Below are positions 6,101 to 51,410 of a stretch of 64,000 nucleotides of DNA, in pieces; positions within the stretch are counted from its first letter, which is position 1; each line of letters starts with the position of its first letter. The notes under the pieces were generated by a model. It made no database searches, was not told the DNA's origin, and saw nothing but the letters and a program-made list of their open reading frames with translations. The stretch comes from Eledone cirrhosa (Eukaryota): assembly GCA_964016885.1 (NCBI GenBank), contig OZ024740.1, positions 213,466,001-213,530,000 on the forward strand. The letters are read 5' to 3'. The position numbers were made by a program, and so were the translations under genes.

Positions 6101-9100
6101 GCTGGACTGTGGCACCAACACTAACACCTTACACTGTGGGCTGGATTGTGGCACCAACACTACCACTTTACACTGTGGGCTGTACTGTGGCACCAACACT
6201 ACCACCTTACACTGTGGGCTGGATTGTGGCACCAACACTACCACCTTACACTGTGGGCTGGATTGTGGCACCAACACTACCACCTTACACTGTGGGCTGG
6301 ATTGTGGCACCAACACTACCATCTTACACTGTGGGCTGGACTGTGGCACCAACACTAACACCTTACACTGTGGGCTGGATTGTGGCACCAGCACTACCAC
6401 CTTACACTGTGGGCTGGATTGTGGCACCAACACTACCACCTTACACTGTGGGCTGGATTGTGACACCAGCACTAACACCTTACACTGTGGGCTGGATTGT
6501 GGGACCAACACTACCACCTTACACTGTGGGCTGGATTGTGGGACCAACACTAACACCTTACACTGTGGGCTGGATTGTGGGACCAACACTAACACCTTAC
6601 ACTGTGGGCTGGACTGTGGCACCAACACTACCACCTTACACTGTGGGCTGGATTGTGGCACCAACACTACCATCTTACACTGTGGGCTGGATTGTGGCAC
6701 CAACACTACCATCTTACACTGTGGGCTGGATTGTGGCACCAACACTAACACCTTACACTGTGGGCTGGATTGTGGGACCAACACTACCACCTTACACTGT
6801 GGGCTGGACTGTGGCACCAACACTACCACCTTACACTGTGGGCTGGATTGTGGCACCAACACTACCACCTTACACTGTGGGCTGGATTGTGGCACCAACA
6901 CTACCACCTTACACTGTGGGCTGGATTGTGGGACCAACACTACCACCTTACACTGTGGGCTAGATTGTGGCACCAACACTAATACCTTACACTGTGGGCT
7001 GGATCGTGGGACCAACACTACCACCTTACACTGTGGGCTGGACTGTGGCACCAACACTACCACCTTACACTGTGGGCTGGATTGTGGCACCAACACTAAC
7101 ACCTTACACTGTGGGCTGGATTGTGGCACCAACACTACCACCTTACACTGTGGGCTGGATTGTGGCACCAACACTACCACCTTACACTGTGGGCTGGATT
7201 GTGGCACCAACACTACCACCTTACACTGTGGGCTGGATTGTGGGACCAACACTACCACCTTACACTGTGGGCTGGACTGTGGCACCGACACTAACACCTT
7301 ACACTGTGGGCTGGATTGTGGCACCAACACTACCATCTTACACTGTGGGCTGGACTGTGGCACCAACACTAACACCTTACACTGTGGGCTGGATTGTGGC
7401 ACCAACACTACCACTTTACACTGTGGGCTGTACTGTGGCACCAACACTACCACCTTACACTGTGGGCTGGATTGTGGCACCAACACTACCACCTTACACT
7501 GTGGGCTGGATTGTGGCACCAACACTACCACCTTACACTGTGGGCTGGATTGTGGCACCAACACTACCACCTTACACTGTGGGCTGGATTGTGGGACCAA
7601 CACTACCACCTTACACTGTGGGCTGGACTGTGGCACCGACACTAACACCTTACACTGTGGGCTGGATTGTGGCACCAACACTACCATCTTACACTGTGGG
7701 CTGGACTGTGGCACCAACACTAACACCTTACACTGTGGGCTGGATTGTGGCACCAGCACTACCACCTTACACTGTGGGCTGGATTGTGGCACCAACACTA
7801 CCACCTTACACTGTGGGCTGGATTGTGACACCAGCACTAACACCTTACACTGTGGGCTGGATTGTGGGACCAACACTACCACCTTACACTGTGGGCTGGA
7901 TTGTGGGACCAACACTAACACCTTACACTGTGGGCTGGATTGTGGGACCAACACTAACACCTTACACTGTGGGCTGGATTGTGGGACCAACACTAACACC
8001 TTACACTGTGGGCTGGACTGTGGCACCAACACTACCACCTTACACTGTGGGCTGGATTGTGGCACCAACACTACCATCTTACACTGTGGGCTGGATTGTG
8101 GCACCAACACTACCATCTTACACTGTGGGCTGGATTGTGGCACCAACACTAACACCTTACACTGTGGGCTGGATTGTGGGACCAACACTACCACCTTACA
8201 CTGTGGGCTGGACTGTGGCACCAACACTACCACCTTACACTGTGGGCTGGATTGTGGCACCAACACTACCATCTTACACTGTGGGCTGGATTGTGGCACC
8301 AACACTACCACCTTACACTGTGGGCTGGATTGTGGCACCAACACTACCACCTTACACTGTGGGCTGGATTGTGGCACCAACACTACCACCTTACACTGTG
8401 GGCTGGATTGTGGCACCAACACTACCATCTTACACTGTGGGCTGGATTGTGGCACCAACACTACCACCTTACACTGTGGGCTGGATTGTGGCACCAACAC
8501 TACCACCTTACACTGTGGGCTGGACTGTGGAACCAACACTACCACCTTACACTGTGGGCTAGATTGTGGCACCAACACTACCACTTTACACTGTGGGCTG
8601 GACTGTGGCACCAACACTACCACCTTACACTGTGGGCTGGACTGTGGCACCAACACTAACACCTTACACTGTGGGCTGGACTGTGGCACCAACACTAACA
8701 CCTTACACTGTGGGCTGGATTGTGACACCAGCACTAACACCTTACACTGTGGGCTGGATTGTGGGACCAACACTAACACCTTACACTGTGGGCTGGATTG
8801 TGGGACCAACACTAACACCTTACACTGTGGGCTGGATTGTGGGACCAACACTAACACCTTACACTGTGGGCTGGATTGTGACACCAGCACTAACACCTTA
8901 CACTGTGGGCTGGATTGTGGGACCAACACTAACACCTGACACTGTGGGCTGGATTGTGGGACCAACACTAACACCTTACACTGTGGGCTGGATTGTGGCA
9001 CCAACACTACCACTTTACACTGTGGGCTGGATTGTGGCACCAACACTACCACCTTACACTGTGGGCTGGACTGTGGCACCAACACTACCACCTTACACTG

Positions 9101-12100
9101 TGGGCTGGATTGTGGCACCAACACTACCACCTTACACTGTGGGCTGGATTGTGGCACCAACACTACCACCTTACACTGTGGGCTGGACTGTGGCACCAAC
9201 ACTACCACCTTACACTGTGGGCTGGATTGTGGCACCAACACTACCATCTTACACTGTGGGCTGGATTGTGGCACCAACACTACCATCTTACACTGTGGGC
9301 TGGATTGTGGCACCAACACTAACACCTTACACTGTGGGCTGGATTGTGGGACCAACACTACCACCTTACACTGTGGGCTGGACTGTGGCACCAACACTAC
9401 CACCTTACACTGTGGGCTGGATTGTGGCACCAACACTACCATCTTACACTGTGGGCTGGATTGTGGCACCAACACTACCACCTTACACTGTGGGCTGGAT
9501 TGTGGCACCAACACTACCACCTTACACTGTGGGCTGGATTGTGGCACCAACACTACCACCTTACACTGTGGGCTGGATTGTGGGACCAACACTACCACCT
9601 TACACTGTGGGCTGGACTGTGGCACCGACACTAACACCTTACACTGTGGGCTGGATTGTGGCACCAACACTACCATCTTACACTGTGGGCTGGACTGTGG
9701 CACCAACACTAACACCTTACACTGTGGGCTGGATTGTGGCACCAACACTACCACTTTACACTGTGGGCTGTACTGTGGCACCAACACTACCACCTTACAC
9801 TGTGGGCTGGATTGTGGCACCAACACTACCACCTTACACTGTGGGCTGGATTGTGGCACCAACACTACCACCTTACACTGTGGGCTGGATTGTGGCACCA
9901 ACACTACCATCTTACACTGTGGGCTGGACTGTGGCACCAACACTAACACCTTACACTGTGGGCTGGATTGTGGCACCAGCACTACCACCTTACACTGTGG
10001 GCTGGATTGTGGCACCAACACTACCACCTTACACTGTGGGCTGGATTGTGACACCAGCACTAACACCTTACACTGTGGGCTGGATTGTGGGACCAACACT
10101 ACCACCTTACACTGTGGGCTGGATTGTGGGACCAACACTAACACCTTACACTGTGGGCTGGATTGTGGGACCAACACTAACACCTTACACTGTGGGCTGG
10201 ACTGTGGCACCAACACTACCACCTTACACTGTGGGCTGGATTGTGGCACCAACACTACCATCTTACACTGTGGGCTGGATTGTGGCACCAACACTACCAT
10301 CTTACACTGTGGGCTGGATTGTGGCACCAACACTAACACCTTACACTGTGGGCTGGATTGTGGGACCAACACTACCACCTTACACTGTGGGCTGGACTGT
10401 GGCACCAACACTACCACCTTACACTGTGGGCTGGATTGTGGCACCAACACTACCACCTTACACTGTGGGCTGGATTGTGGCACCAACACTACCACCTTAC
10501 ACTGTGGGCTGGATTGTGGGACCAACACTACCACCTTACACTGTGGGCTAGATTGTGGCACCAACACTAATACCTTACACTGTGGGCTGGATCGTGGGAC
10601 CAACACTACCACCTTACACTGTGGGCTGGACTGTGGCACCAACACTACCACCTTACACTGTGGGCTGGATTGTGGCACCAACACTAACACCTTACACTGT
10701 GGGCTGGATTGTGGCACCAACACTACCACCTTACACTGTGGGCTGGATTGTGGCACCAACACTACCACCTTACACTGTGGGCTGGATTGTGGCACCAACA
10801 CTACCACCTTACACTGTGGGCTGGATTGTGGGACCAACACTACCACCTTACACTGTGGGCTGGACTGTGGCACCGACACTAACACCTTACACTGTGGGCT
10901 GGATTGTGGCACCAACACTACCATCTTACACTGTGGGCTGGACTGTGGCACCAACACTAACACCTTACACTGTGGGCTGGACTGTGGCACCAACACTAAC
11001 ACCTTACACTGTGGGCTGGATTGTGGCACCAGCACTACCACCTTACACTGTGGGCTGGATTGTGGCACCAACACTACCACCTTACACTGTGGGCTGGATT
11101 GTGACACCAGCACTAACACCTTACACTGTGGGCTGGATTGTGGGACCAACACTACCACCTTACACTGTGGGCTGGATTGTGGGACCAACACTAACACCTT
11201 ACACTGTGGGCTGGATTGTGGGACCAACACTAACACCTTACACTGTGGGCTGGATTGTGGGACCAACACTAACACCTTACACTGTGGGCTGGACTGTGGC
11301 ACCAACACTACCACCTTACACTGTGGGCTGGATTGTGGCACCAACACTACCATCTTACACTGTGGGCTGGATTGTGGCACCAACACTACCATCTTACACT
11401 GTGGGCTGGATTGTGGCACCAACACTAACACCTTACACTGTGGGCTGGATTGTGGGACCAACACTACCACCTTACACTGTGGGCTGGACTGTGGCACCAA
11501 CACTACCACCTTACACTGTGGGCTGGATTGTGGCACCAACACTACCATCTTACACTGTGGGCTGGATTGTGGCACCAACACTACCACCTTACACTGTGGG
11601 CTGGATTGTGGCACCAACACTACCACCTTACACTGTGGGCTGGATTGTGGCACCAACACTACCACCTTACACTGTGGGCTGGATTGTGGCACCAACACTA
11701 CCATCTTACACTGTGGGCTGGATTGTGGCACCAACACTACCACCTTACACTGTGGGCTGGATTGTGGCACCAACACTACCACCTTACACTGTGGGCTGGA
11801 CTGTGGAACCAACACTACCACCTTACACTGTGGGCTAGATTGTGGCACCAACACTACCACTTTACACTGTGGGCTGGACTGTGGCACCAACACTACCACC
11901 TTACACTGTGGGCTGGACTGTGGCACCAACACTAACACCTTACACTGTGGGCTGGACTGTGGCACCAACACTAACACCTTACACTGTGGGCTGGATTGTG
12001 ACACCAGCACTAACACCTTACACTGTGGGCTGGATTGTGGGACCAACACTAACACCTTACACTGTGGGCTGGATTGTGGGACCAACACTAACACCTTACA

Positions 12101-12885
12101 CTGTGGGCTGGATTGTGGGACCAACACTAACACCTTACACTGTGGGCTGGATTGTGACACCAGCACTAACACCTTACACTGTGGGCTGGATTGTGGGACC
12201 AACACTAACACCTGACACTGTGGGCTGGATTGTGGGACCAACACTAACACCTTACACTGTGGGCTGGATTGTGGCACCAACACTACCACTTTACACTGTG
12301 GGCTGGATTGTGGCACCAACACTACCACCTTACACTGTGGGCTGGACTGTGGCACCAACACTACCACCTTACACTGTGGGCTGGATTGTGGCACCAACAC
12401 TACCACCTTACACTGTGGGCTGGATTGTGGCACCAACACTACCACCTTACACTGTGGGCTGGATTGTGGCACCAACACTACCAACTTACACTGTGGGCTG
12501 GATTGTGGCACCAACACTACCACTTTACACTGTGGGCTGGATTGTGGCACAAACACTACCACCTTACACTGTGGGCTGGATTGTGGCACCAACACTACCA
12601 CCTTACACTGTGGGCTGGATTGTGACACCAACACTACCACCTTACACTGTGGGCTGGATTGTGGCACCAACACTAACACCTTACACTGTGGGCTGGATTG
12701 TGGCACCAACACTACCACCTTACACTGTGGGCTGGATTGTGGCACCAACACTACCACCTTACACTGTGGGCTGGATTGTGGCACCAACACTAACACCTTA
12801 CACTGTGGGCTGGATTGTGGCACCAACACTAACACCTTACACTGGATTGTGGCACCAACACTACCACTTTACAGAGTAGGCTGAG
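128..12885. repeat. Minisatellite array, 39-bp unit CCTTACACTGTGGGCTGGATTGTGGCACCAACACTA(C/A)CA, ~327 copies
   Basis: Directly visible tandem repeat with 13-aa periodicity in all ORFs. A few units have 8-bp deletions (~1520, ~1630, ~1700, ~2780, ~12840). Confidence 0.99.
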
Positions 12886-13012: not shown

Positions 13013-13294
13013 CTTATATAAAATAGGGTGAAGACCTTAAAAGACGGAAAAAGAAGTTGCCATCAGCCGCTATGAGGAATTGAACCTGGTATCTCCCAGA
13101 CAGTGGCTATGTGCTGGTACAACGAGCCTAGCCAGTAGCTGAGAGATATGGGGTCCGATGAACCTGGTATCTCCCAGATAGTGGCTATGTGCTGGTACAA
13201 CGAGCCTAGCCAGTAGCTGAGAGATATGGGGTCCGATTCCTCATAGCAGCGACAGCAACTTCTATCTTTAAAGGTCTTCACCATATTTTATAAG
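13013..13294. mobile_element. Fold-back element: ~60-65 bp inverted arms around a 2 x 78-bp tandem duplication
   Basis: Left arm TATAAAATAGGGTGAAGACCTTAAAAGA..GAAGTTGC..GCTATGAGGAAT is the reverse complement of 13237-13294. Units 13081-13158 and 13159-13236 differ at one base. Confidence 0.8.
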
Positions 13295-16150: not shown

Positions 16151-16226
16151 AGTATTTTATGTGGCACCTTGGGCCTTTCTACTATAAATTGGTAGAGAGA
16201 AATGGTGAAGAAATCTGTTGCAGATA

Positions 16227-16470
16227 TCATCATCATCACTCTCTAACATCTATTTTTCATGTTTACATAGGTTAGACATGTCAGATGGACATGCCTTGCT
16301 CATACTCTCTGTTTGGAGCTTGGTTTCTATGACTAAATGCCCTTCTAAATGCCAACCACTTTACAGCACGTACTGGGAACATTTTTCGAGGCACCAACTC
16401 CATCACTTTATATGGTAGATTCAGTGATTTTTGTTGTGGAACCAGTACTGTCACCTTATATGGTGGACTG
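16227..16470 (-). mobile_element. RTE-tailed SINE copy (family A) that seeds the 45-bp array
   Basis: (CAT)n tail, then AATGCCCTTCTAAATGCCAACCACTTTACAGCACGTACTGGG.., homologous to 38122-38380, 44790-44990 and 61408-61680. It grades directly into the 45-bp units. Confidence 0.85.
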
Positions 16471-19400
16471 GGTGACTGTTCTAGAACCAGAACTACCACT
16501 TTCTATGGTAGACTGGGTGACTGTTCTAGAACCAGAACTACCACTTTATATGGTGGACTGGGTGACTGTTCTAGAACCAGAACTACCACTTTATATGGTG
16601 AACAGGGTGACTGTTCTAGAACCAGAACTACCACTTTATATGGTGAACTGGGTGACTGTTGTAGAACCAGAACTACCACTTTATATGGTGAACTGGGTGA
16701 CTGTTCTAGAACCAGAACTACCACTTTATATGGTGAACTGGGTGACTGTTCTAGAACCAGAACTACCACTTTATATGGTGAACTGGGTGACTGTTCTAGA
16801 ACCAGAACTACCACTTTATATGGTAGACTGGGTGACTGTTCTAGAACCAGAACTACCACTTTATATGGTGAACTGGGTGACTGTTCTAGAACCAGAACTA
16901 CCACTTTATATGGTAGACTGGGTGACTGTTCTAGAACCAGAATTACCACTTTATATGGTAGACTGGATGACTGTTCTAGAACCAGAACTACCACTTTATA
17001 TGGTGAACTGGGTGACTGTTCTAGAACCAGAACTACCACTTTATATGGTAGACTGGGTGACTGTTCTAGAACCAGAACTACCACTTTATATGGTAGACTG
17101 GGTGACTGTTCTAGAACCAGAACTACCACTTTATATGGTAGACTGGGTGACTGTTCTAGAACCAGAACTACCACTTTATATGGTAGACTGGGTGACTGTT
17201 CTAGAACCAGAACTACCACTTTATATGGTGAACTGGGAGACTGTTCTAGAACCAGAATTACCACTTTCTATGGTAGACTGGGTGACTGTTCTAGAACCAG
17301 AACTACCACTTTATATGGTGAACTGGGTGACTGTTCTAGAACCAGAACTACCACTTTATATGGTAGACTGGGTGACTGTTCTAGAACCAGAACTACCACT
17401 TTATATGGTGGACTGGGTGACTGTTCTAGAACCAGAACTACCACTTTATATGGTGAACGGGGTGACTGTTCTAGAACCAGAACTACCACTTTATATGGTG
17501 AACTGGGTGACTGTTGTAGAACCAGAACTACCACTTTATATGGTGAACTGGGTAACTGTTCTAGAACCAGAACTACCACTTTATATGGTGAACTGGGTGA
17601 CTGTTCTAGAACCAGAACTACCACTTTATATGGTGAACTGGGTGACTGTTCTAGAACCAGAACTACCACTTTATATGGTGAACTGGGTGACTGTTCTAGA
17701 ACCAGAACTACCACTTTATATGGTAGACTGGGTGACTGTTCTAGAACCAGAACTACCACTTTATATGGTGAACTGGGTGACTGTTCTAGAACCAGAACTA
17801 CCACTTTATATGGTGAACTGGGTGACTGTTCTAGAACCAGAACTACCACTTTATATGGTGAACTGGGTGACTGTTCTAGAACCAGAACTACCACTTTATA
17901 TGGTGAACTGGGTGACTGTTCTAGAACCAGAACTACCACTTTATATGGTAGACTGGGTGACTGTTCTAGAACCAGAACTACCACTTTATATGGTGAACTG
18001 GGTGACTGTTCTAGAACCAGAACTACCACTTTATATGGTGAACTGGGTGACTGTTCTAGAACCAGAACTACCACTTTATATGGTGAACTGGGTGACTGTT
18101 CTAGAACCAGAACTACCACTTTATATGGTGAACTGGGTGACTGTTCTAGAACCAGAACTACCACTTTATATGGTGAACTGGGTGACTGTTCTAGAACCAG
18201 AACTACCACTTTATATGGTGAACTGGGTGACTGTTCTAGAACCAGAACTACCACTTTATATGGTGAACTGGGTGACTGTTCTAGAACCAGAACTACCACT
18301 TTATATGGTAGACTGGGTGACTGTTCTAGAACCAGAACTACCACTTTATATGGTGAACTGGATGACTGTTCTAGAACCAGAACTACCACTTTATATGGTG
18401 AACTGGGTGACTGTTCTAGAACCAGAACTACCACTTTATATGGTGAATTAGGTGACTGTTCTAGAACCAGAACTACCACTTTATATGGTAGACTGGGTGA
18501 CTGTTCTAGAACCAGAACTACCACTTTATATGGTAGACTGGGTGACTGTTCTAGAACCAGAACTACCACTTTATATGGTGAACTGGGTGACTGTTCTAGA
18601 ACCAGAACTACCACTTTATATGGTGGACTGGGTGACTGTTCTAGAACCAGAACTACCACTTTATATGGTGAACTGGGTGACTGTTCTAGAACCAGAACTA
18701 CCACTTTATATGGTAGACTGGGTGACTGTTCTAGAACCAGAACTACCACTTTATATGGTGAACTGGGTGACTGTTCTAGAACCAGAACTACCACTTTATA
18801 TGGTAGACTGGGTGACTGTTCTAGAACCAGAATTACCACTTTATATGGTAGACTGGGTGACTGTTCTAGAACCAGAACTACCACTTTATATGGTGAACTG
18901 GGTGACTGTTCTAGAACCAGAACTACCACTTTATATGGTAGACTGGGTGACTGTTCTAGAACCAGAACTACCACTTTATATGGTAGACTGGGTGACTGTT
19001 CTAGAACCAGAACTACCACTTTATATGGTAGACTGGGTGACTGTTCTAGAACCAGAACTACCACTTTATATGGTAGACTGGGTGACTGTTCTAGAACCAG
19101 AACTACCACTTTATATGGTGAACTGGGAGACTGTTCTAGAACCAGAATTACCACTTTCTATGGTAGACTGGGTGACTGTTCTAGAACCAGAACTACCACT
19201 TTATATGGTGAACTGGGTGACTGTTCTAGAACCAGAACTACCACTTTATATGGTAGACTGGGTGACTGTTCTAGAACCAGAACTACCACTTTATATGGTG
19301 GACTGGGTGACTGTTCTAGAACCAGAACTACCACTTTATATGGTGAACGGGGTGACTGTTCTAGAACCAGAACTACCACTTTATATGGTGAACTGGGTGA

Positions 19401-22400
19401 CTGTTGTAGAACCAGAACTACCACTTTATATGGTGAACTGGGTAACTGTTCTAGAACCAGAACTACCACTTTATATGGTGAACTGGGTGACTGTTCTAGA
19501 ACCAGAACTACCACTTTATATGGTGAACTGGGTGACTGTTCTAGAACCAGAACTACCACTTTATATGGTGAACTGGGTGACTGTTCTAGAACCAGAACTA
19601 CCACTTTATATGGTAGACTGGGTGACTGTTCTAGAACCAGAACTACCACTTTATATGGTGAACTGGGTGACTGTTCTAGAACCAGAACTACCACTTTATA
19701 TGGTGAACTGGGTGACTGTTCTAGAACCAGAACTACCACTTTATATGGTGAACTGGGTGACTGTTCTAGAACCAGAACTACCACTTTATATGGTGAACTG
19801 GGTGACTGTTCTAGAACCAGAACTACCACTTTATATGGTAGACTGGGTGACTGTTCTAGAACCAGAACTACCACTTTATATGGTGAACTGGGTGACTGTT
19901 CTAGAACCAGAACTACCACTTTATATGGTGAACTGGGTGACTGTTCTAGAACCAGAACTACCACTTTATATGGTGAACTGGGTGACTGTTCTAGAACCAG
20001 AACTACCACTTTATATGGTGAACTGGGTGACTGTTCTAGAACCAGAACTACCACTTTATATGGTGAACTGGGTGACTGTTCTAGAACCAGAACTACCACT
20101 TTATATGGTGAACTGGGTGACTGTTCTAGAACCAGAACTACCACTTTATATGGTGAACTGGGTGACTGTTCTAGAACCAGAACTACCACTTTATATGGTA
20201 GACTGGGTGACTGTTCTAGAACCAGAACTACCACTTTATATGGTGAACTGGATGACTGTTCTAGAACCAGAACTACCACTTTATATGGTGAACTGGGTGA
20301 CTGTTCTAGAACCAGAACTACCATTTATATGGTGAATTAGGTGACTGTTCTAGAACCAGAACTACCACTTTATATGGTAGACTGGGTGACTGTTCTAGAA
20401 ACAGAACTACCACTTTATATGGTGAACTGGGTGACTGTTCTAGAACCAGAACTACCACTTTATATGGTGAACTGGGTGACTGTTCTAGAACCAGAACTAC
20501 CACTTTATATGGTGGACTGGGTGACTGTTCTAGAACCAGAACTACCACTTTATATGGTGGACTGGGTGACTGTTCTAGAACCAGAACTACCACTTTATAT
20601 GGTGAACAGGGTGACTGTTCTAGAACCAGAACTACCACTTTATATGGTGAACTGGGTGACTGTTCTAGAACCAGAACTACCACTTTATATGGTGAACGGG
20701 GTGACTGTTCTAAAACCAGAACTACCACTTTATATGGTGAACTGGGTGACTGTTCTAGAACCAGAACTACCACTTTATATGATGAACTGGGTGACTGCTC
20801 TAGAACCAGAACTACCACTTTATATGGTGAACTGGGTGACTGTTCTAGAACCAGAACTACCACTTTATATGGTGAACTGGGTGACTGTTCTAGAACCAGA
20901 ACTACCACTTTATATGGTGAACTGGGTGACTGTTCTAGAACCAGAACTACCACTTTATATGGTAGACTGGGTGACTGTTGTAGAACCAGAACTACCACTT
21001 TATATGGTGAACTGGGTGACTGTTCTAGAACCAGAACTACCACTTTATATGGTGAACTGGGTGACTGTTCTAGAACCAGAACTACCACTTTATATGGTAG
21101 ACTGGGTGACTGTTCTAGAACCAGAACTACCACTTTATATGGTGAACTGGGTGACTGTTCTAGAACCAGAACTACCACTTTATATGGTGAACTGGGTGAC
21201 TGTTCTAGAACCAGAACTACCACTTTATATGGTGAACTGGGTGACTGTTCTAGAACCAGAACTACCACTTTATATGGTGAACTGGGTGACTGTTCTAGAA
21301 CCAGAACTACCACTTTATATGGTGAACTGGGTGACTGTTCTAGAACCAGAACTACGACTTTATATGGTGAACTGGGTGACTGTTCTAGAACCAGAACTAC
21401 CACTTTATATGGTAGACTGGGTGACTGTTCTAGAACCAGAACTACCACTTTATATGGTGAACTGGGTGACTGTTCTAGAACCAGAACTACCACTTTATAT
21501 GGTGAACTGGGTGACTGTTCTAGAACCAGAACTACCACTTTATATGGTGAACTGGGTGACTGTTCTAGAACCAGAACTACCACTTTATATGGTAGACTGG
21601 GTGACTGTTCTAGAACCAGAACTACCACTTTATATGGTAGACTGGGTGACTGTTCTAGAACCAGAACTACCACTTTATATGGTGAACTGGGAGACTGTTC
21701 TAGAACCAGAATTACCACTTTCTATGGTAGACTGGGTGACTGTTCTAGAACCAGAACTACCACTTTATATGGTGAACTGGCTGACTGTTCTAGAACCAGA
21801 ACTACCACTTTATATGGTAGACTGGGTGACTGTTCTAGAACCAGAACTACCACTTTATATGGTGGACTGGGTGACTGTTCTAGAACCAGAACTACCACTT
21901 TATATGGTGAACGGGGTGACTGTTCTAGAACCAGAACTACCACTTTATATGGTGAACTGGGTGACTGTTCTAGAACCAGAACTACCACTTTATATGGTGA
22001 ACTGGGTGACTGTTGTAGAACCAGAACTACCACTTTATATGGTGAACTGGGTGACTGTTCTAGAACCAGAACTACCACCTTATATGGTGAACTGGGTGAC
22101 TGTTCTAGAACCAGAACTACCACTTTATATGGTGAACTGGGTGACTGTTCTAGAACCAGAACTACCACTTTATATGGTGAACTGGGTGACTGTTCTAGAA
22201 CCAGAACTACCACTTTATATGGTAGACTGGGTGACTGTTCTAGAACCAGAACTACCACTTTATATGGTGAACTGGGTGACTGTTCTAGAACCAGAACTAC
22301 CACTTTATATGGTGAACTGGGTGACTGTTCTAGAACCAGAACTACCATTTTATATGGTGAATTGGGTGACTGTTCTAGAACCAGAACTACCACTTTATAT

Positions 22401-25400
22401 GGTAGACTGGGTGACTGTTCTAGAACCAGAACTACCACTTTATATGGTGAACTGGGTGACTGTTCTAGAACCAGAACTACCACTTTATATGGTGAACTGG
22501 GTGACTGTTCTAGAACCAGAACTACCACTTTATATGGTGAACTGGGTCACTGTTCTAGAACCAGAACTACCACTTTATATGGTGAACTGGGTGACTGTTC
22601 TAAAACCAGAACTACCACTTTATATGGTGAACTGGGTGACTGTTCTAGAACCAGAACTACCACTTTATATGGTGAACTGGGTGACTGTTCTAGAACCAGA
22701 ACTACCACTTTATATGATGAACTGGGTGACTGTTCTAGAACCAGAACTACCACTTTATATGGTGAACTGGGTGACTGTTCTAGAACCAGAACTACCACTT
22801 TATATGGTGAACTGGGTGACTGTTCTAGAACCAGAACTACCACTTTATATGGTGAACTGGGTGACTGTTCTAGAACCAGAACTACCACTTTATATGGTGA
22901 ACTGGGTGACTGTTCTAGAACCAGAACTACCACTTTATATGATGAACTGGGTGACTGCTCTAGAACCAGAACTACCACTTTATATGGTGAACTGGGTGAC
23001 TGTTCTAGAACCAGAACTACCACTTTATATGGTGAACTGGGTGACTGTTCTAGAACCAGAACTACCACTTTATATGGTGAACTGGGTGACTGTTCTAGAA
23101 CCAGAACTACCACTTTATATGGTAGACTGGGTGACTGTTCTAGAACCAGAACTACCACTTTATATGGTGAACTGGGTGACTGTTCTAGAACCAGAACTAC
23201 CACTTTATATGGTGAACTGAGGTGACTGTTCTAGAACCAGAACTACCACTTTATATGGTGAACTGGGTGACTGTTCTAGAACCAGAACTACCACTTTATA
23301 TGGTAGACTGGGTGACTGTTCTAGAACCAGAACTACCACTTTATATGGTGAACTGGGTGACTGTTCTAGAACCAGAACTACCACTTTATATGGTGAACTG
23401 GGTGACTGTTCTAGAACCAGAACTACCACTTTATATGGTAGACTGGGTGACTGTTCTAGAACCAGAACTACCACTTTATATGGTGAACTGGGTGACTGTT
23501 CTAGAACCAGAACTACCACTTTATATGGTGAACTGGGTGACTGTTCTAGAACCAGAACTACCACTTTATATGGTGAACTGGGTGACTGTTCTAGAACCAG
23601 AACTACCACTTTATATGGTGAACTGGGTGACTGTTCTAGAACCAGAACTACCACTTTATATGGTGAACTGGGTGACTGTTCTAGAACCAGAACTACGACT
23701 TTATATGGTGAACTGGGTGACTGTTCTAGAACCAGAACTACCACTTTATATTGTAGACTGGGTGACTGTTCTAGAACCAGAACTACCACTTTATATGGTG
23801 AACTGGGTGACTGTTCTAGAACCAGAACTACCACTTTATATGGTGAACTGGGTGACTGTTCTAGAACCAGAACTACCACTTTATATGGTGAACTGGGTGA
23901 CTGTTCTAGAACCAGAACTACCACTTTATATGGTAGACTGGATGACTGTTCTAGAACCAGAACTACCACTTTATATGGTAGACTGGGTGACTGTTCTAGA
24001 ACCAGAACTACCACTTTATATGGTGAACTGGGAGACTGTTCTAGAACCAGAATTACCACTTTCTATGGTAGACTGGGTGACTGTTCTAGAACCAGAACTA
24101 CCACTTTATATGGTGAACTGGCTGACTGTTCTAGAACCAGAACTACCACTTTATATGGTAGACTGGGTGACTGTTCTAGAACCAGAACTACCACTTTATA
24201 TGGTGGACTGGGTGACTGTTCTAGAACCAGAACTACCACTTTATATGGTGAACGGGGTGACTGTTCTAGAACCAGAACTACCACTTTATATGGTGAACTG
24301 GGTGACTGTTCTAGAACCAGAACTACCACTTTATATGGTGAACTGGGTGACTGTTGTAGAACCAGAACTACCACTTTATATGGTGAACTGGGTGACTGTT
24401 CTAGAACCAGAACTACCACTTTATATGGTGAACTGGGTGACTGTTCTAGAACCAGAACTACCACTTTATATGGTGAACTGGGTGACTGTTCTAGAACCAG
24501 AACTACCACTTTATATGGTGAACTGGGTGACTGTTCTAGAACCAGAACTACCACTTTATATGGTAGACTGGGTGACTGTTCTAGAACCAGAACTACCACT
24601 TTATATGGTGAACTGGGTGACTGTTCTAGAACCAGAACTACCACTTTATATGGTGAACTGGGTGACTGTTCTAGAACCAGAACTACCACTTTATATGGTG
24701 AATTGGGTGACTGTTCTAGAACCAGAACTACCACTTTATATGGTAGACTGGGTGACTGTTCTAGAACCAGAACTACCACTTTATATGGTGAACTGGGTGA
24801 CTGTTCTAGAACCAGAACTACCACTTTATATGGTGAACTGGGTGACTGTTCTAGAACCAGAACTACCACTTTATATGGTGAACTGGGTGACTGTTCTAGA
24901 ACCAGAACTACCACTTTATATGGTGAACTGGGTGACTGTTCTAAAACCAGAACTACCACTTTATATGGTGAACTGGGTGACTGTTCTAGAACCAGAACTA
25001 CCACTTTATATGGTGAACTGGGTGACTGTTCTAGAACCAGAACTACCACTTTATATGATGAACTGGGTGACTGTTCTAGAACCAGAACTACCACTTTATA
25101 TGGTGAACTGGGTGACTGTTCTAGAACCAGAACTACCACTTTATATGGTGAACTGGGTGACTGTTCTAGAACCAGAACTACCACTTTATATGGTGAACTG
25201 GGTGACTGTTCTAGAACCAGAACTACCACTTTATATGGTGAACTGGGTGACTGTTCTAGAACCAGAACTACCACTTTATATGGTAGACTGGGTGACTGTT
25301 CTAGAACCAGAACTACCACTTTATATGGTGAACTGGGTGACTGTTCTAGAACCAGAACTACCACTTTATATGGTGAACTGAGGTGACTGTTCTAGAACCA

Positions 25401-28400
25401 GAACTACCACTTTATATGGTGAACTGGGTGACTGTTCTAGAACCAGAACTACCACTTTATATAGTAGACTGGGTGACTGTTCTAGAACCAGAACTACCAC
25501 TTTATATGGTGAACTGGGTGACTGTTCTAGAACCAGAACTACCACTTTATATGGTGAACTGGGTGACTGTTCTAGAACCAGAACTACCACTTTATATGGT
25601 GAACTGAGTGACTGTTCTAGAACCAGAACTACCACTTTATATGGTGAACTGGGTGACTGTTCTAGAACCAGAACTACCACTTTATATGGTTAACTGGGTG
25701 ACTGTTCTAGATCCAGAACTACCACTTTATATGGTGAACTGGGTGACTGTTCTAGAACCAGAACTACCACTTTATATGGTGAACTGGCTGACTGTTCTAG
25801 AACCAGAACTACCACTTTATATGGTAGACTGGGTGACTGTTCTAGAACCAGAACTACCACTTTATATGGTGAACTGGGTGACTGTTCTAGAACCAGAACT
25901 ACCACTTTATATGGTGGACTGGGTGACTGTTCTAGAACCAGAACTACCACTTTATATGGTGAACTGGGTGACTGTTCTAGAACCAGAACTACCACTTTAT
26001 ATGGTGAACTGGGTGACTGTTCTAGAACCAGAACTACCACTTTATATGGTAGACTGGGTGACTGTTCTAGAACCAGAACTACCACTTTATATGGTGAACT
26101 GGGTGACTGTTCTAGAACCAGAACTACCACTTTATATGGTGAACTGGGTGACTGTTCTAGAACCAGAACTACCACTTTATATGGTGAACTGGGTGACTGT
26201 TCTAGAACCGGAACTACCACTTTATATGGTGAACTGGGTGACTGTTCTAGAACCAGAACTACCACTTTATATGGTGAACTGGGTGACTGTTCTAGAACCA
26301 GAACTACCACTTTATATGGTAGACTGGGTGACTGTTCTAGAACCAGAACCAGAACTAACACTTTATATGGTGAACTGGGTGACTGTTCTAGAACCAGAAC
26401 TACCACTTTATATGGTGAACTGGGTGACTGTTCTAGAACCAGAACTACCACTTTATATGGTGAACTGGGTGACTGTTCTAGAACCAGAACTACCACTTTA
26501 TATGGTGAACTGGGTGACTGTTCTAGAACCAGAACTACCACTTTACATGGTAGACTGGGTGACTGTTCTAGAACCAGAACTACCACTTTATATGGTGGAC
26601 TGGGTGACTGTTCTAGAACCAGAACTACCACTTTATATGGTGAACAGGGTGACTGTTCTAGAACCAGAACTACCACTTTATATGGTGAACTGGGTGACTG
26701 TTCTAGAACCAGAACTACCACTTTATATGGTGAACTGGGTGACTGTTCTAGAACCAGAACTACCACTTTATATGGTGAACTGGGTGACTGTTCTAGAACC
26801 AGAACTAGCACTTTATATGGTGAACTGGGTGACTGTTGTAGAACCAGAACTACCACTTTATATGGTAAACTGGGTGACTGTTCTAGAACCAGAACTACCA
26901 CTTTATATGGTGAACTGGGTGACTGTTCTAGAACCAGAACTACCACTTTATATGGTGAACTGGGTGACTGTTCTAGAACCAGAACTACCACTTTATATGG
27001 TGAACTGGGTGACTGTTCTAGAACCAGAACTACCACTTTATATGGTGAACTGGGTGACTGTTCTAGAACCAGAACTACCACTTTATATGGTAGACTGGGT
27101 GACTGTTCTAGAACCAGAACTACCACTTTATATGGTGAACTGGGTGACTGTTCTAGAACCAGAACTACCACTTTATATGGTGAACTGGGTGACTGTTCTA
27201 GAACCAGAACTACCACTTTATATGGTGAACTGGGTGACTGTTCTAGAACCAGAACTACCACTTTATATGGTAGACTGGGTGACTGTTCTAGAACCAGAAC
27301 TACCACTTTATATGGTGAACTGGGTGACTGTTCTAGAACCAGAACTACCACTTTATATGGTGAACTGGGTGACTGTTCTAGAACCAGAACTACCACTTTA
27401 TATGGTGAACTGGGTGACTGTTCTAGAACCAGAAACTACCACTTTATATGGTGAATTGGGTGACTGTTCTAGAACCAGAACTACCACTTTATATGGTGAA
27501 CTGGGTGACTGTTCTAGAACCAGAACTACCACTTTATATGGTGAACTGGGTGACTGTTCTAGAACCAGAACTACCACTTTATATGGTAGACTGGGTGACT
27601 GTTCTAGAACCAGAACTACCACTTTATATGGTGAACTGGGTGACTGTTCTAGAATCAGAACTACCACTTTATATGGTGAACTGGGTGACTGTTCTAGAAC
27701 CAGAACTACCACTTTATATGGTGAACTGGGTGACTGTTCTAGAACCAGAACTACCACTTTATATGGTGAACTGGGTGACTGTTCTAGAACCAGAACTACC
27801 ACTTTATATGGTGAATTGGGTGACTGTTCTAGAACCAGAACTACCACTTTATATGGTGAACTGGGTGACTGTTCTAGAACCAGAACTACCACTTTATATG
27901 GTGAACTGGGTGACTGTTCTAGAACCAGAACTACCACTCTATATGGTGAACTGGGTGACTGTTCTAGAACCAGAACTACCACTTTATATGGTGAACTGGG
28001 TGACTGTTCTAGAACCAGAACTACCACTTTATATGGTAGACTGGGTGACTGTTCTAGAACCAGAACTACCATTTTATATGGTGAACTGGATGACTGTTCT
28101 AGAACCAGAACTACCACTTTATATGGTGAACTGGGTGACTGTTCTAGAACCAGAACTACCACTTTATATGGTGAATTAGGTGACTGTTCTAGAACCAGAA
28201 CTACCACTTTATATAGTAGACTGGGTGACTGTTCTAGAACCAGAACTACCACTTTATATGGTGAACTGGGTGACTGTTCTAGAACCAGAACTACCACTTT
28301 ATATGGTGAACTGGGTGACTGTTCTAGAACCAGAACTACCACTTTATATGGTGAACTGAGTGACTGTTCTAGAACCAGAACTACCACTTTATATGGTGAA

Positions 28401-31400
28401 CTGGGTGACTGTTCTAGAACCAGAACTACCACTTTATATGGTTAACTGGGTGACTGTTCTAGATCCAGAACTACCACTTTATATGGTGAACTGGGTGACT
28501 GTTCTAGAACCAGAACTACCACTTTATATGGTGAACTGGCTGACTGTTCTAGAACCAGAACTACCACTTTATATGGTAGACTGGGTGACTGTTCTAGAAC
28601 CAGAACTACCACTTTATATGGTGAACTGGGTGACTGTTCTAGAACCAGAACTACCACTTTATATGGTGGACTGGGTGACTGTTCTAGAACCAGAACTACC
28701 ACTTTATATGGTGAACTGGGTGACTGTTCTAGAACCAGAACTACCACTTTATATGGTGAACTGGGTGACTGTTCTAGAACCAGAACTACCACTTTATATG
28801 GTAGACTGGGTGACTGTTCTAGAACCAGAACTACCACTTTATATGGTGAACTGGGTGACTGTTCTAGAACCAGAACTACCACTTTATATGGTGAACTGGG
28901 TGACTGTTCTAGAACCAGAACTACCACTTTATATGGTGAACTGGGTGACTGTTCTAGAACCGGAACTACCACTTTATATGGTGAACTGGGTGACTGTTCT
29001 AGAACCAGAACTACCACTTTATATGGTGAACTGGGTGACTGTTCTAGAACCAGAACTACCACTTTATATGGTAGACTGGGTGACTGTTCTAGAACCAGAA
29101 CCAGAACTAACACTTTATATGGTGAACTGGGTGACTGTTCTAGAACCAGAACTACCACTTTATATGGTGAACTGGGTGACTGTTCTAGAACCAGAACTAC
29201 CACTTTATATGGTGAACTGGGTGACTGTTCTAGAACCAGAACTACCACTTTATATGGTGAACTGGGTGACTGTTCTAGAACCAGAACTACCACTTTATAT
29301 GGTAGACTGGGTGACTGTTCTAGAACCAGAACTACCACTTTATATGGTGGACTGGGTGACTGTTCTAGAACCAGAACTACCACTTTATATGGTGAACAGG
29401 GTGACTGTTCTAGAACCAGAACTACCACTTTATATGGTGAACTGGGTGACTGTTCTAGAACCAGAACTACCACTTTATATGGTGAACTGGGTGACTGTTC
29501 TAGAACCAGAACTACCACTTTATATGGTGAACTGGGTGACTGTTCTAGAACCAGAACTAGCACTTTATATGGTGAACTGGGTGACTGTTGTAGAACCAGA
29601 ACTACCACTTTATATGGTAAACTGGGTGACTGTTCTAGAACCAGAACTACCACTTTATATGGTGAACTGGGTGACTGTTCTAGAACCAGAACTACCACTT
29701 TATATGGTGAACTGGGTGACTGTTCTAGAACCAGAACTACCACTTTATATGGTGAACTGGGTGACTGTTCTAGAACCAGAACTACCACTTTATATGGTGA
29801 ACTGGGTGACTGTTCTAGAACCAGAACTACCACTTTATATGGTAGACTGGGTGACTGTTCTAGAACCAGAACTACCACTTTATATGGTGAACTGGGTGAC
29901 TGTTCTAGAACCAGAACTACCACTTTATATGGTGAACTGGGTGACTGTTCTAGAACCAGAACTACCACTTTATATGGTGAACTGGGTGACTGTTCTAGAA
30001 CCAGAACTACCACTTTATATGGTAGACTGGGTGACTGTTCTAGAACCAGAACTACCACTTTATATGGTGAACTGGGTGACTGTTCTAGAACCAGAACTAC
30101 CACTTTATATGGTGAACTGGGTGACTGTTCTAGAACCAGAACTACCACTTTATATGGTGAACTGGGTGACTGTTCTAGAACCAGAAACTACCACTTTATA
30201 TGGTGAATTGGGTGACTGTTCTAGAACCAGAACTACCACTTTATATGGTGAACTGGGTGACTGTTCTAGAACCAGAACTACCACTTTATATGGTGAACTG
30301 GGTGACTGTTCTAGAACCAGAACTACCACTTTATATGGTAGACTGGGTGACTGTTCTAGAACCAGAACTACCACTTTATATGGTGAACTGGGTGACTGTT
30401 CTAGAATCAGAACTACCACTTTATATGGTGAACTGGGTGACTGTTCTAGAACCAGAACTACCACTTTATATGGTGAACTGGGTGACTGTTCTAGAACCAG
30501 AACTACCACTTTATATGGTGAACTGGGTGACTGTTCTAGAACCAGAACTACCACTTTATATGGTGAATTGGGTGACTGTTCTAGAACCAGAACTACCACT
30601 TTATATGGTGAACTGGGTGACTGTTCTAGAACCAGAACTACCACTTTATATGGTGAACTGGGTGACTGTTCTAGAACCAGAACTACCACTCTATATGGTG
30701 AACTGGGTGACTGTTCTAGAACCAGAACTACCACTTTATATGGTGAACTGGGTGACTGTTCTAGAACCAGAACTACCACTTTATATGGTAGACTGGGTGA
30801 CTGTTCTAGAACCAGAACTACCATTTTATATGGTGAACTGGATGACTGTTCTAGAACCAGAACTACCACTTTATATGGTGAACTGGGTGACTGTTCTAGA
30901 ACCAGAACTACCACTTTATATGGTGAATTAGGTGACTGTTCTAGAACCAGAACTACCACTTTATATGGTAGACTGGGTGACTGTTCTAGAACCAGAACTA
31001 CCACTTTATATGGTGAACTGGGTGACTGTTCTAGAACCAGAACTACCACTTTATATGTTAAACTGGGTGACTGTTCTAGAACCAGAACTACCACTTTATA
31101 TGGTGGACTGGGTGACTGTTCTAGAACCAGAACTACCACTTTATATGGTGGACTGGGTGACTGTTCTAGAACCAGAACTACCACTTTATATGGTGAACAG
31201 GGTGACTGTTCTAGAACCAGAACTACCACTTTATATGGTGAACTGGGTGACTGTTCTAGAACCAGAACTACCACTTTATATGGTGAACTGGGTGACTGTT
31301 CTAGAACCAGAACTACTACTTTATATGGTGAACTGGGTGACTGTTCTAGAACCAGAACTACCACTTTATATGGTAGACTGGGTGACTGTTCTAGAACCAG

Positions 31401-33085
31401 AACTACCACTTTATATGGTGAACTGGGTGACTGTTCTAGAACCAGAACTACCACTTTATATGGTGAACTGAGGTGACTGTTCTAGAACCAGAACTACCAC
31501 TTTATATGGTGAACTGGGTGACTGTTCTAGAACCAGAACTACCACTTTATATGGTAGACTGGGTGACTGTTCTAGAACCAGAACTACCACTTTATATGGT
31601 GAACTGGGTGACTGTTCTAGAACCAGAACTACCACTTTATATGGTGAACTGGGTGACTGTTCTAGAACCAGAACTACCACTTTATATGGTAGACTGGGTG
31701 ACTGTTCTAGAACCAGAACTACCACTTTATATGGTGAACTGGGTGACTGTTCTAGAACCAGAACTACCACTTTATATGGTGAACTGGGTGACTGTTCTAG
31801 AACCAGAACTACCACTTTATATGGTGAACTGGGTGACTGTTCTAGAACCAGAACTACCACTTTATATGGTGAACTGGGTGACTGTTCTAGAACCAGAACT
31901 ACCACTTTACATGGTGAACTGGGTGACTGTTCTAGAACCAGAACTACGACTTTATATGGTGAACTGGGTGACTGTTCTAGAACCAGAACTACCACTTTAT
32001 ATGGTAGACTGGGTGACTGTTCTAGAACCAGAACTACCACTTTATATGGTGAACTGGGTGACTGTTCTAGAACCAGAACTACCACTTTATATGGTGAACT
32101 AGGTGACTGTTCTAGAACCAGAACTACCACTTTATATGGTAGACTGGGTGACTGTTCTAGAACCAGAACTACCACTTTATATGGTGAACTGGGTGACTGT
32201 TCTAGAACCAGAACTACCACTTTATATGGTGAACTGGGTGACTGTTCTAGAACCAGAACTACCACTTTATATGGTGAACTGGGTGACTGTTCTAGAACCA
32301 GAACTACCACTTCATATGGTAGACTGGGTGACTGTTCTAGAACCAGAACTACCACTTTATATGGTGAACTGGGTGACTGTTCTAGAACCAGAACTACCAC
32401 TTTATATGGTAGACTGGGTGACTGTTCTAGAACCAGAACTACCACTTTATATGGTGAACTGGGTGACTGTTCTAGAACCAGAACTACCACTTTATATGGT
32501 AAACTGGGTGACTGTTCTAGAACCAGAACTACCACTTTATATGGTGAACTGGGTGACTGTTCTAGAACCAGAACTACCACTTTATATGGTGAACTGGGTG
32601 ACTGTTCTAGAACCAGAACTACCACTTTATATGGTGAACTGGGTGACTGTTCTAGAACCAGAACTACCACTTTATATGGTGAACTGGGTGGCTGTTCTAG
32701 AACCAGAACTACCACTTTATATGGTGAACTGGGTGACTGTTCTAGAACCAGAACTACCACTTTATATGGTAGACTGGGTGACTGTTCTAGAACCAGAACT
32801 ACCACTTTATATGGTGAACTGGGTGACTGTTCTAGAACCAGAACTACCACTTTATATGGTGAACTGGGTGACTGTTTTAGAACCAGAACTACCACTTTAT
32901 ATGGTGAACTGGGTGACTGTTCTAGAACCAGAACTACCACTTTATATGGTGAACTGGGTGACTGTTCTAGAACCAGAACTACCACTTTATATGGTGAACT
33001 GGCTGACTGTTCTAGAACCAGAACTACCACTTTATATGGTGAACTGGGTGACTTTTGTTGTAGAACCAGCACTACCACTTTATAG
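16404..33085. repeat. Minisatellite array, 45-bp unit CTTTATATGGTGAACTGGGTGACTGTTCTAGAACCAGAACTACCA, ~370 copies
   Basis: Directly visible tandem repeat with 15-aa periodicity in the ORFs. Nearly every unit has the palindrome GTTCTAGAAC (XbaI site). Confidence 0.99.
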
Positions 33086-33089
33086 GGAA

Positions 33090-41814: not shown

Positions 41815-41900
41815 CTGCAGATATTCACAAGGTTCTTTCGTTGTACAGTCCATTGCCTGATGGCAAGTGCTTTTCGGCGAGATGACGCTGCAATATCCAT
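41815..41900 (-). CDS. RUNDC3: First coding exon of a RUN-domain protein, RUNDC3A/B (RPIP8/RPIP9)-like; partial, continues leftwards
   Basis: ATG at 41900 has a strong Kozak context (gcaaatATGG) and an upstream in-frame TAA. The exon reads MDIAASSRRKALAIRQWTVQRKNLVNIC-R and ends at a consensus donor CAG|GTAAGA. It resembles the vertebrate RUNDC3A N-terminus (..[22 protein letters not shown], recalled). It lies in unique, CpG-containing sequence. No exon 2 was found in the window. Confidence 0.72.
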
Positions 41901-50389: not shown

Positions 50390-51410
50390 TAGTCCTTAGG
50401 TCCTTCTATGCTTTGGGGCATATTGGGCAATGAGTCTTCTTCAAATTACACGATCAGCTGCAGTATCTTGCATAATTTCCCAGTCAGTCCAATTCACTGG
50501 AGATCTTTGAAAGTTGAGTGCCAGGTTTTCTTAGGTCTCCTTTTGTTCCGCTTACCACTGACTGGGATCCCTCTCATTGCCACAGATGGGTTTTGGTACT
50601 CAGACATGCGCAGAATGTGTCCAGTTTCAGGTACCTTTCAGTGATGGTGTCAGTCAGTAGCCTCTGTTTACTTCTCTTCAGCACCTCTACATTAATAATC
50701 TGGTTTCGGTAAATGATTTTCAGGATTTTTCTTAGGCTTCTTTGTTTGAAATCGTTGAGCTTTTGGCAGTCATTTTCCAGGTTTCACTAGCATATATGGC
50801 AGTTGTGACTATAATGCTGTTGAAGAGCTGCAGTTTGAGGGACGTGGAGATTATTTGCGATGACCCATGGAGGCACATGGCTTAGTGGTTAGAGCATTGG
50901 CCTTGCAATCGAAAGGTTGTGAGTTCAATTCTCAGACCGGGTGATGTGTTGTTTCCTTGAGCAAGGCACTTTATTTGACATTGCTCCAGTTTACTCAGCT
51001 GTAGAAATGAGATGATAGGGACTGGGGTCCATATCATTCCACTGCAAAGTGGTCGTGGAGGTGCCACGGCAAAAAAGCACCCAGCACTCACTGTAAATGA
51101 GGTTGGTGTTAGGAAGGGCATCCAGCTGTAGAAATCAAGCCAGAATCAGTTCCCGTCCCACCCTTGCAAGCAGGGAAAAGTGGACGTAAAATGAAATGAT
51201 GATGATGATGATGATGACCCAATGTTTATCATGCCCTGAAATACTCCTGATACCATTCCAATCCTGCAGTTTACATCTACCTCAGTGAGGCCTTCGTTGG
51301 AGACTATGCTGCCCAAATATATGAACTAGTTCACCTCTTCTATTGCCTGTGTTTCAATATGTACTTTCTCAGCAATTTTCGTGCCAGCTTGCATCACTTT
51401 GGTCTTTAAA
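50390..51410 (-). mobile_element. Decayed RTE LINE 3' fragment interrupted by a SINE
   Basis: Minus-strand FIYLGSIV, WTHSAH/GKRNKRRPKKTW-like RT C-terminal motifs. Confidence 0.6.
50868..51212 (+). mobile_element. Full-length family A SINE: tRNA-derived head, CORE-like domain, RTE 5'-derived body and RTE 3' tail, with a 9-bp TSD
   Basis: A box TGGCTTAGTGGT and B box GAGTTCAATTC. CCTTGAGCAAGGCACTT..CAGTTTACTCAGCTGTAGAAATG is CORE-like. The body matches 54600-54680 and the tail matches the LINE end at 51498-51557. GATGACCCA is duplicated at 50859-50867 and 51213-51221. Confidence 0.92.

What the first reader, a model, noticed from the sequence alone, without database searches (positions are those of the whole stretch)
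16473..33040. ~370 tandem near-canonical heat-shock elements: a possible HSF-binding satellite
Seen: nearly every 45-bp unit contains tGACtgTTCtaGAAc (first at 16473-16487), a one-mismatch match to the three-pentamer HSE nGAAnnTTCnnGAAn with a perfect TTCtaGAA pair. The ancestral-type edge units (GATTTTTGTTGTGGAACC at ~16426 and GACTTTTGTTGTAGAACC at ~33050) and rare GTTGTAGAAC variants lack it, so the motif arose in the amplified unit. Established: HSF trimers bind such elements, and human Satellite III arrays recruit HSF1 and are stress-transcribed. Inference: this array could be an HSF sink, a stress-inducible enhancer or a stress-induced repeat RNA inside a host gene. It may also be a chance match amplified neutrally.
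Basis: partly seen in the sequence, partly recalled or inferred. Interest (0 to 1): 0.7.

Follow-up and report, generated by a model that had tools for sequence, protein, structure and literature searches.

The report
Jumping-gene satellite with heat-shock-like sites
A 16.6-kb block of about 370 short repeats, grown out of a very common jumping-gene fragment inside an intron, carries an imperfect heat-shock-factor-like site in almost every repeat, but the site is likely a chance by-product because sister arrays lack it and unrelated repeat blocks in the same genome carry equally good ones.

Summary
In detail: 341 exact tGACtgTTCtaGAAc copies, and 348 of 368 units are one mismatch from a three-pentamer HSE; none is perfect. 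The 45-bp unit is a locus-private derivative of a 48-bp internal block of a tRNA-headed SINE (at least 111,828 core matches in the genome). The array sits in a truncated SINE copy in the inferred 43-kb first intron of a RUN-domain gene, beside a 39-bp sister array without the HSE. None of 36 sister consensus units has an HSE. HSE positions mutate as freely as the rest of the unit. Tandem TTCTAGAA is rarer genome-wide than its reversed control (939 vs 2,209), and unrelated arrays carry equal or better sites (C4, at least 770 units; C7, 82 units with perfect HSEs). Best reading: a SINE-derived satellite whose founder unit drifted into an HSE-like sequence and was then amplified. In-vitro binding is plausible; a selected role is unsupported. 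This keeps a small chance of a heat-inducible intronic promoter array.

The parts
16432..33084 (.). 45-bp minisatellite, about 368-370 units, 0.65% mean difference from consensus (the dimorphic positions 39-40 left out); internal block duplications of 42 units (1.89 kb) and 61 units (2.75 kb); eight length-changing indels
16473..16487 (+). First HSE-like 15-mer (relaxed GAC pentamer, then TTC and GAA); repeated every 45 bp
16545..16550 (-). TATAAA on the minus (host-sense) strand, 13 bp downstream of the HSE-like site of the next unit to the right; this pairing occurs in 333 units, TATAAA in 358
16222..16471 (-). Truncated SINE copy that seeded the array: (GAT)n-type tail, conserved core, and two diverged 48-bp blocks (16376-16423, 16424-16471) running straight into the array
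   Evidence: alignment with dispersed copies
33048..33087 (.). Right edge unit of the longer ancestral type (TTGTAGAA, no HSE), followed by the tail of another SINE fragment
128..12873 (.). 39-bp sister minisatellite (328 copies, 94%) from the same SINE block, shortened by 9 bp; no HSE (best match 4 mismatches)
50860..51220 (+). Near full-length copy of the parent SINE: tRNA-like head with box A (about 50878) and box B (about 50923), core with the 48-bp block, (GAT)n tail
41815..41900 (-). First coding exon of the RUN-domain host gene (RUNDC3-like label recalled); next exon lies 1,197 bases left of the window start, giving an inferred 43,011-bp intron, 68% of it filled by the two arrays
   Evidence: RUN domain in a later exon

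Best explanation
The array is a SINE-derived satellite in the inferred first intron of a RUN-domain gene, and its HSE-like site is likely a passenger that arose once by drift in the founder unit and was then copied about 370 times, likely by unequal exchange, without a selected heat-shock role. Shown: the unit aligns to a 48-bp block that dispersed SINE copies carry in one to three copies, and the array runs out of a SINE remnant. Inferred steps: the block duplicated in place; substitutions turned TTGTGGCA into TTGTAGAA and then TTCTAGAA; a 3-bp loss in the T-run brought GAC into register; block duplications of 42-61 units lengthened the array. Predicted: naked units bind HSF in vitro; in cells the array is probably mostly unoccupied.
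For: SINE origin: alignment; at least 111,828 exact SINE core matches; 4,099 exact 48-bp-period triplets genome-wide, the first 100 falling in 17 arrays on C1. Long arrays need no HSE: the 39-bp neighbour (328 copies) and a 292-copy array lack it; 0 of 36 sister consensus units come within 2 mismatches or have a TTCnnGAA pair, although 27 fetched stretches were picked by likeness to this array's edge. Private: 327 of 327 matches are in the window. No conservation: 8 distinct substitutions at 8 HSE positions vs 26 at 35 others (p=0.83); 20 vs 83 by unit count (p=0.64). No enrichment: tandem TTCTAGAA 939 vs reversed control 2,209, and 489 vs 1,172 at spacings that exclude this array. Not unique: C4:98.72 Mb, at least 770 units and 486 one-mismatch sites in 30 kb; C7:9.25 Mb, 82 units and 74 perfect sites. 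Real hsp70 promoters here have a four-pentamer HSE with a perfect core in 7 of 8 loci. Under 15% of strong HSE motifs are bound in Drosophila cells (PMC2936546, passages).
Against: Reaching a one-mismatch HSE from the SINE block by random change is rare: 0.015-0.09% per unit for 6-10 substitutions plus a 3-bp loss; with an extrapolated several hundred sister arrays that predicts only about 0.1-0.6 such arrays. HSE plus TATA 8-30 bp downstream occurs in 0.026% of shuffles. Perfect-HSE doublets exceed their control genome-wide, 165 vs 58, though one array supplies 74 perfect sites. The site equals in quality the weaker proximal HSE of six hsp70 promoters here. The selection test has low power (34 distinct changes) on a young array. 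348 sites in a transcribed gene could be bound even at low occupancy. No binding or RNA data were available.
Confidence: 0.74

Rival explanations
1. Accidental but active: the array arose neutrally, yet HSF binds it on heat stress and the HSE-13 bp-TATAAA units fire RNA polymerase II in the host-sense direction, giving a stress-induced repeat RNA or interfering with the host gene.
For: 333 units have HSE, 13 bp, TATAAA on the sense strand; two strict plus one relaxed pentamer is the usual in-vitro class (PMC3315474); HSF binds transposon-borne HSE clusters in Caenorhabditis even in repressive chromatin (PMC6927752, passages); HSF prefers HSEs within genes (PMC2936546).
Against: Most strong HSEs stay unbound without prior active chromatin; sites are 45 bp apart, not contiguous; in this genome's hsp70 promoters the nearest TATA lies 59 bp or more from the HSE, not 13; HSE plus TATA alone gave weak activity across insect species without GAGA sites (PMC4336284, passages).
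Confidence: 0.17
2. Selected regulatory element: the array was kept or lengthened because it acts as a heat-responsive enhancer or internal promoter of the RUN-domain gene, or as an HSF sink like human Satellite III.
For: Several changes were needed to build the site and the joint HSE-TATA layout is rare in nulls; the array is the longest of its family sampled here; exon 2 holds an in-frame ATG that an internal transcript could use.
Against: No conservation at HSE positions; no unit improves to a perfect HSE (0 of 368); single locus; an HSE-free sister array of similar length shares the intron; the TATAAA variant predates the expansion and occurs in 4 of 28 sister stretches; no good splice donor in the unit (best 5 of 9).
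Confidence: 0.05
3. Coding repeat: the 45-bp unit is 15 codons and could encode a repetitive protein.
For: Three frames of the consensus unit are open; longest stop-to-stop frame 1,335 aa on +.
Against: Six one-base indels shift the frame; on the host-sense strand the longest frame is 629 aa; the unit is SINE-derived and intronic; sister arrays have periods of 47 and 49.
Confidence: 0.02
4. Assembly artefact: the array length is inflated.
For: Contig depth over the unit is 125-165 times that of unique flanks, while the assembly holds a mean of 243 copies of each consensus 31-mer.
Against: Units carry ordered private variants and the duplicated blocks differ from each other. The depth still needs well over 100 copies and fits a shorter second allele. 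These runs are one sample, perhaps the source, so they are not independent.
Confidence: 0.02

Closest known systems
SINE-derived satellites (sSat1-3) of squamate reptiles (Vassetzky et al. 2023, PMC10702118; abstract and Discussion read)
   Same: Tandem repeats of an internal SINE portion, with the SINE remainder attached at one end, many independent loci, long loci homogeneous.
   Different: Invertebrate (likely octopod; recalled, not tested), 39-48-bp units, locus-private unit variants, mid-chromosome intronic position.
Helitron-borne HSE arrays of Caenorhabditis (Garrigues et al. 2019, PMC6927752; passages)
   Same: Repeat-derived cluster of more than 100 HSE-like sites.
   Different: There the element family carries overlapping HSEs at 953 copies, is ChIP-bound and acts within 2.5 kb upstream of genes. 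Here the parent SINE has no HSE, one locus has it, sites are 45 bp apart, and the nearest end is 8.8 kb downstream of the start codon.
Human Satellite III / nuclear stress bodies (review PMC9032817; passages)
   Same: Tandem repeat with predicted HSEs that could recruit HSF.
   Different: Satellite III is a pericentromeric 5-bp repeat with shown HSF1 binding and stress transcription. This is a 16.6-kb intronic minisatellite with neither shown.
HSE-bearing Alu copies inside genes (cited in PMC9032817, passages)
   Same: SINE-derived HSE downstream of a host gene's start.
   Different: Alu HSEs are conserved subfamily features proposed to drive antisense RNA; here the HSE is private, tandem, and its TATA points sense.

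Membership tests
SINE-derived satellite (sSat-like) | Repeat unit homologous to an internal SINE segment | tested here: met
   alignment to dispersed copies; unit vs 48-bp block alignment
SINE-derived satellite (sSat-like) | Terminal unit continues into the SINE up to one SINE end | tested here: met
   16222-16471 runs from the SINE tail into the array
SINE-derived satellite (sSat-like) | Parent is a tRNA-headed, high-copy SINE | tested here: met
   box A and box B strings in the 50860-51220 copy; 111,828 core matches. No Rfam hit at gathering score in 33000-64000; target-site duplications not checked
SINE-derived satellite (sSat-like) | Many loci; long loci homogeneous | tested here: met
   26 of 27 fetched stretches gave family repeats; 4,099 triplets; this array 96%
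SINE-derived satellite (sSat-like) | Preference for subtelomeric position (a tendency in reptiles) | tested here: inconclusive
   this locus is at 213 of 443 Mb, but 10 of the 17 arrays listed on C1 lie beyond 400 Mb
Heat-shock element | Three contiguous alternating nGAAn pentamers, perfect | tested here: not met
   0 of 368 units
Heat-shock element | Two strict pentamers plus one relaxed pentamer | tested here: met
   348 of 368 units; class described in PMC3315474; judged by consensus mismatch, no HSF weight matrix was available
Heat-shock element | HSF binding in vitro and heat-dependent occupancy in vivo | not testable with these tools
   no binding data; an HSF-type domain is encoded in the genome
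Satellite III-type stress satellite | Pericentromeric pentamer satellite | tested here: not met
   45-bp unit, 16.6 kb, intronic
Satellite III-type stress satellite | HSF-dependent stress transcription | not testable with these tools
   no heat-stress RNA could be examined
Transposon-dispersed HSE network (Helitron type) | HSE carried by the element family at many loci | tested here: not met
   327 of 327 matches at one locus; 0 of 36 sister units

The most novel reading that the evidence does not exclude
A SINE-derived minisatellite has become a tandem array of about 333 minimal heat-shock promoters (HSE, 13 bp, TATAAA), all pointing along the host gene. On heat stress it would recruit HSF and start transcription inside intron 1, giving a stress-induced repeat RNA or a shortened RUN-domain transcript, with strength set by array length. 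With the C4 and C7 arrays it would be part of a set of de novo HSF-binding satellites in an invertebrate.
Probability: 0.1. Interest if true: 0.7.

Novelty: new member of a known kind. Interest (0 to 1): 0.26.

Why it matters
As it stands it is a clear example of a SINE seeding two different giant minisatellites in one intron, and a caution that a motif repeated 370 times is one event. If HSF does occupy and fire it, it would show a stress-responsive promoter array arising de novo from repeat drift, with copy number as a dial. The natural TTG units, the HSE-free sister array and the C4 and C7 arrays give built-in controls for that test.

Tried and rejected
Coding-repeat reading: rejected (frame-shifting indels, SINE origin). 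Rfam scan of 33000-64000: 0 hits; the array itself was not scanned. Expression: no RNA holder listed among 7 runs, which says nothing on expression. RAD-seq reads of two other individuals (X5, X6) gave no cover of the array-specific positions: uninformative. Run X3 (another species label) has two 73-base contigs at depth 2.3 that match array units exactly, one with TTC and one with TTG, but no unique flank; a short orthologous array and stray reads cannot be told apart, so it is not used. A count of SINE-anchored arrays was not obtained; the number of sister arrays is only extrapolated. Exon 1 and exon 2 alone gave no RUN hit in Pfam (one search's exon-1 reference was out of frame); the RUNDC3 name is recalled. 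Literature searches listed no paper on cephalopod SINE-derived minisatellites or cephalopod HSE arrays; subscription papers such as Ohshima and Okada 1994 on octopus SINEs are not held, so the SINE could not be matched to a named family. No supplementary files were opened; repeat libraries in genome-paper supplements may already list this family. Look-ups of earlier findings near the locus, by sequence and by HSE words gave nothing relevant.

Full report
OBSERVATION. The array is as described: period 45, 369.6 copies, 96% matches, 16432-33084. Splitting by alignment gives 368 units, 0.65% from consensus outside one dimorphic pair of positions. The 15-mer tGACtgTTCtaGAAc begins at 16473 and occurs 341 times; TTCTAGAA occurs 352 times in the array and twice elsewhere in the window. 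348 of 368 units are one mismatch from GAAnnTTCnnGAA and none is perfect. The edge units and 8 inner TTGTAGAA units lack the site. A shuffled unit has such a site in 1.3-1.4% of trials. Because the units descend from one founder, the count of 370 adds nothing to that figure.

WHAT IT IS. The unit aligns to a 48-bp block inside an interspersed repeat whose copies in this window carry the block one to three times. A near-complete copy at 50860-51220 has tRNA-type A and B boxes and a (GAT)n tail, and a 24-base core pattern has 111,828 exact matches in the genome, so the parent is a high-copy SINE. At 16222-16471 a truncated reverse copy runs through two diverged 48-bp blocks straight into the array; the right edge is again a longer ancestral-type unit. 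The 39-bp array at 128-12873 comes from the same block. A DNA search with the left edge found relatives on many contigs; of 27 stretches examined, 26 held family repeats, and with the 39-bp array they gave 36 consensus units, some overlapping or only 2-3 copies long. One exact variant at period 48 gives 4,099 triplets, the first 100 in 17 arrays on C1, which extrapolates roughly to several hundred arrays. This matches the SINE-derived satellites of reptiles (PMC10702118; abstract and Discussion read). The organism is likely an octopod; that rests on recalled repeat features and earlier AI notes, not on a test.

HOST GENE. A first coding exon lies at 41815-41900 on the minus strand, the next exon 1,197 bases left of the window, and a later exon scores over the Pfam RUN cut-off. 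The join is inferred from splice sites and frame, not from RNA; the RUNDC3 label is recalled. The inferred intron is 43,011 bp and the two arrays fill 68% of it.

IS THE HSE SPECIAL? For chance: the HSE unit is private (327 of 327 genome matches are in this window, also with a looser pattern). None of the 36 sister units is within 2 mismatches, including arrays of 292 and 328 copies. HSE positions carry 8 distinct substitutions at 8 sites against 26 at 35 (p=0.83; by unit count 20 vs 83, p=0.64). Tandem TTCTAGAA is less common than the reversed, equally palindromic control, 939 vs 2,209 and 489 vs 1,172 without this array. An unrelated 31/34-bp array on C4 has at least 770 units and 486 one-mismatch sites in the 30 kb fetched, and a 38-bp array on C7 has 74 perfect sites. 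Seven of eight hsp70 upstream regions examined have a four-pentamer HSE with a perfect core, better than this unit. Against chance: descent from the SINE block yields such a site in only 0.015-0.09% of simulations (the starting block was my own composite of the copies), perfect-HSE doublets exceed their control 165 to 58, the site equals the weaker second HSE of six hsp70 promoters, and the selection test is weak.

On the host-sense strand each unit reads HSE, 13 bp, TATAAA; 333 units have both. This resembles the close HSE-TATA spacing of Drosophila hsp70 (recalled). The joint layout occurs in 0.026% of shuffles. But TATAAA is one substitution from the SINE block, is already in the left edge unit and appears in 4 of 28 sister stretches; in this genome's hsp70 promoters the TATA lies 59 bp or more from the nearest HSE; and the unit has no good splice donor.

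MECHANISM. Shown: SINE origin, stepwise intermediates at the edges, and block duplications of 42 and 61 units. Inferred: in-place duplication of the block, drift of one unit into the HSE-like form with a 3-bp loss, then amplification by unequal exchange. Predicted: HSF binds the naked unit, since two strict plus one relaxed pentamer is the usual in-vitro class (PMC3315474, passages) and the genome has an HSF-type domain. Occupancy in cells is doubtful, because under 15% of strong motifs are bound in Drosophila and prior active chromatin decides (PMC2936546, passages), although transposon HSE clusters are bound in Caenorhabditis (PMC6927752, passages). I put a neutral passenger at 0.74, an accidental but active array at 0.17, a selected role at 0.05.

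READS. Three runs of one sample, possibly the source, show unit depth 125-165 times flank depth, against a mean of 243 consensus 31-mers in the assembly. A large array exists; the second allele may be shorter.

COMPARISON AND NOVELTY. It passes the tested features of a SINE-derived satellite and fails those of Satellite III and of Helitron-type HSE networks (PMC9032817, passages). PMC4758252 (passages) notes an octopus CORE SINE but did not let me name this family; PMC4336284 (passages) bears on promoter context. Nine literature searches listed no report of this family or of cephalopod HSE arrays. Verdict: new member of a known kind, interest 0.26, with a 10% case for a heat-inducible promoter array.

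Noticed in passing
G000:C4:98719626 to at least 98745000 (L091-L093): Unrelated 31/34-bp minisatellite, at least 770 units and 25 kb, with TTCtaGAAggTTG in most units (486 one-mismatch HSE-like sites, 403 TTCTAGAA) and a TATA-like string in some; a larger HSE-like array than the one reported. Right end not reached.
   Followed up: partly
L069:2063-5175 (G000:C7, about 9,248,060-9,251,175): 38-bp minisatellite, 82 copies, 96% alike, with a perfect TTCnnGAAnnTTC in 74 units; the best HSE array seen. Gene context not examined.
   Followed up: partly
L066:1470-1545, L071:2369-2456, L072:2440-2520: Dispersed element (43 matches, a lower bound) with a contiguous run of about 6-9 near-HSE pentamers in 10/20-bp repeats and, on one strand, a TATA-like string about 15-25 bp away; decayed open frames follow. 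It looks more like the Caenorhabditis Helitron-HSE case than this finding does; element class not determined.
   Followed up: partly
L073:1941-2003 (G000:C2, about 126,325,940): Perfect 10-bp repeat x6.3 that forms a contiguous HSE of about 12 pentamers.
   Followed up: no
L078-L082, L084 (G000:C4:11.44-11.78 Mb) and L077, L083 (C2:179.3 Mb): Tandem intronless hsp70 cluster (five copies about 7.6 kb apart, plus one with an internal stop and one partial) with identical HSE-HSE-TATA promoters; a second pair on C2 in which L083 has lost one base of the perfect HSE core.
   Followed up: partly
L076 (G000:C5:71561313-71561654, minus): Second, divergent, apparently intronless HSF-type DNA-binding domain in a 338-aa frame, besides the intron-containing one on C1.
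   Followed up: no
window 38290-38370 (+) and 38470-38590 (-): Two SINE 48-bp-block segments in inverted orientation about 100 bp apart, able to pair in the host pre-mRNA.
   Followed up: no
G000:C1:213799218: A third array of the same family about 270 kb beyond the window end; further unrelated minisatellites of 29-84 bp fill the host gene's downstream introns.
   Followed up: no
window 13081-13237; 43654-43831; 51500-54600: 78-bp exact tandem duplication; a 24-bp degenerate telomere-like repeat upstream of the host gene; a decayed LINE on the minus strand attached to SINE-like ends.
   Followed up: no
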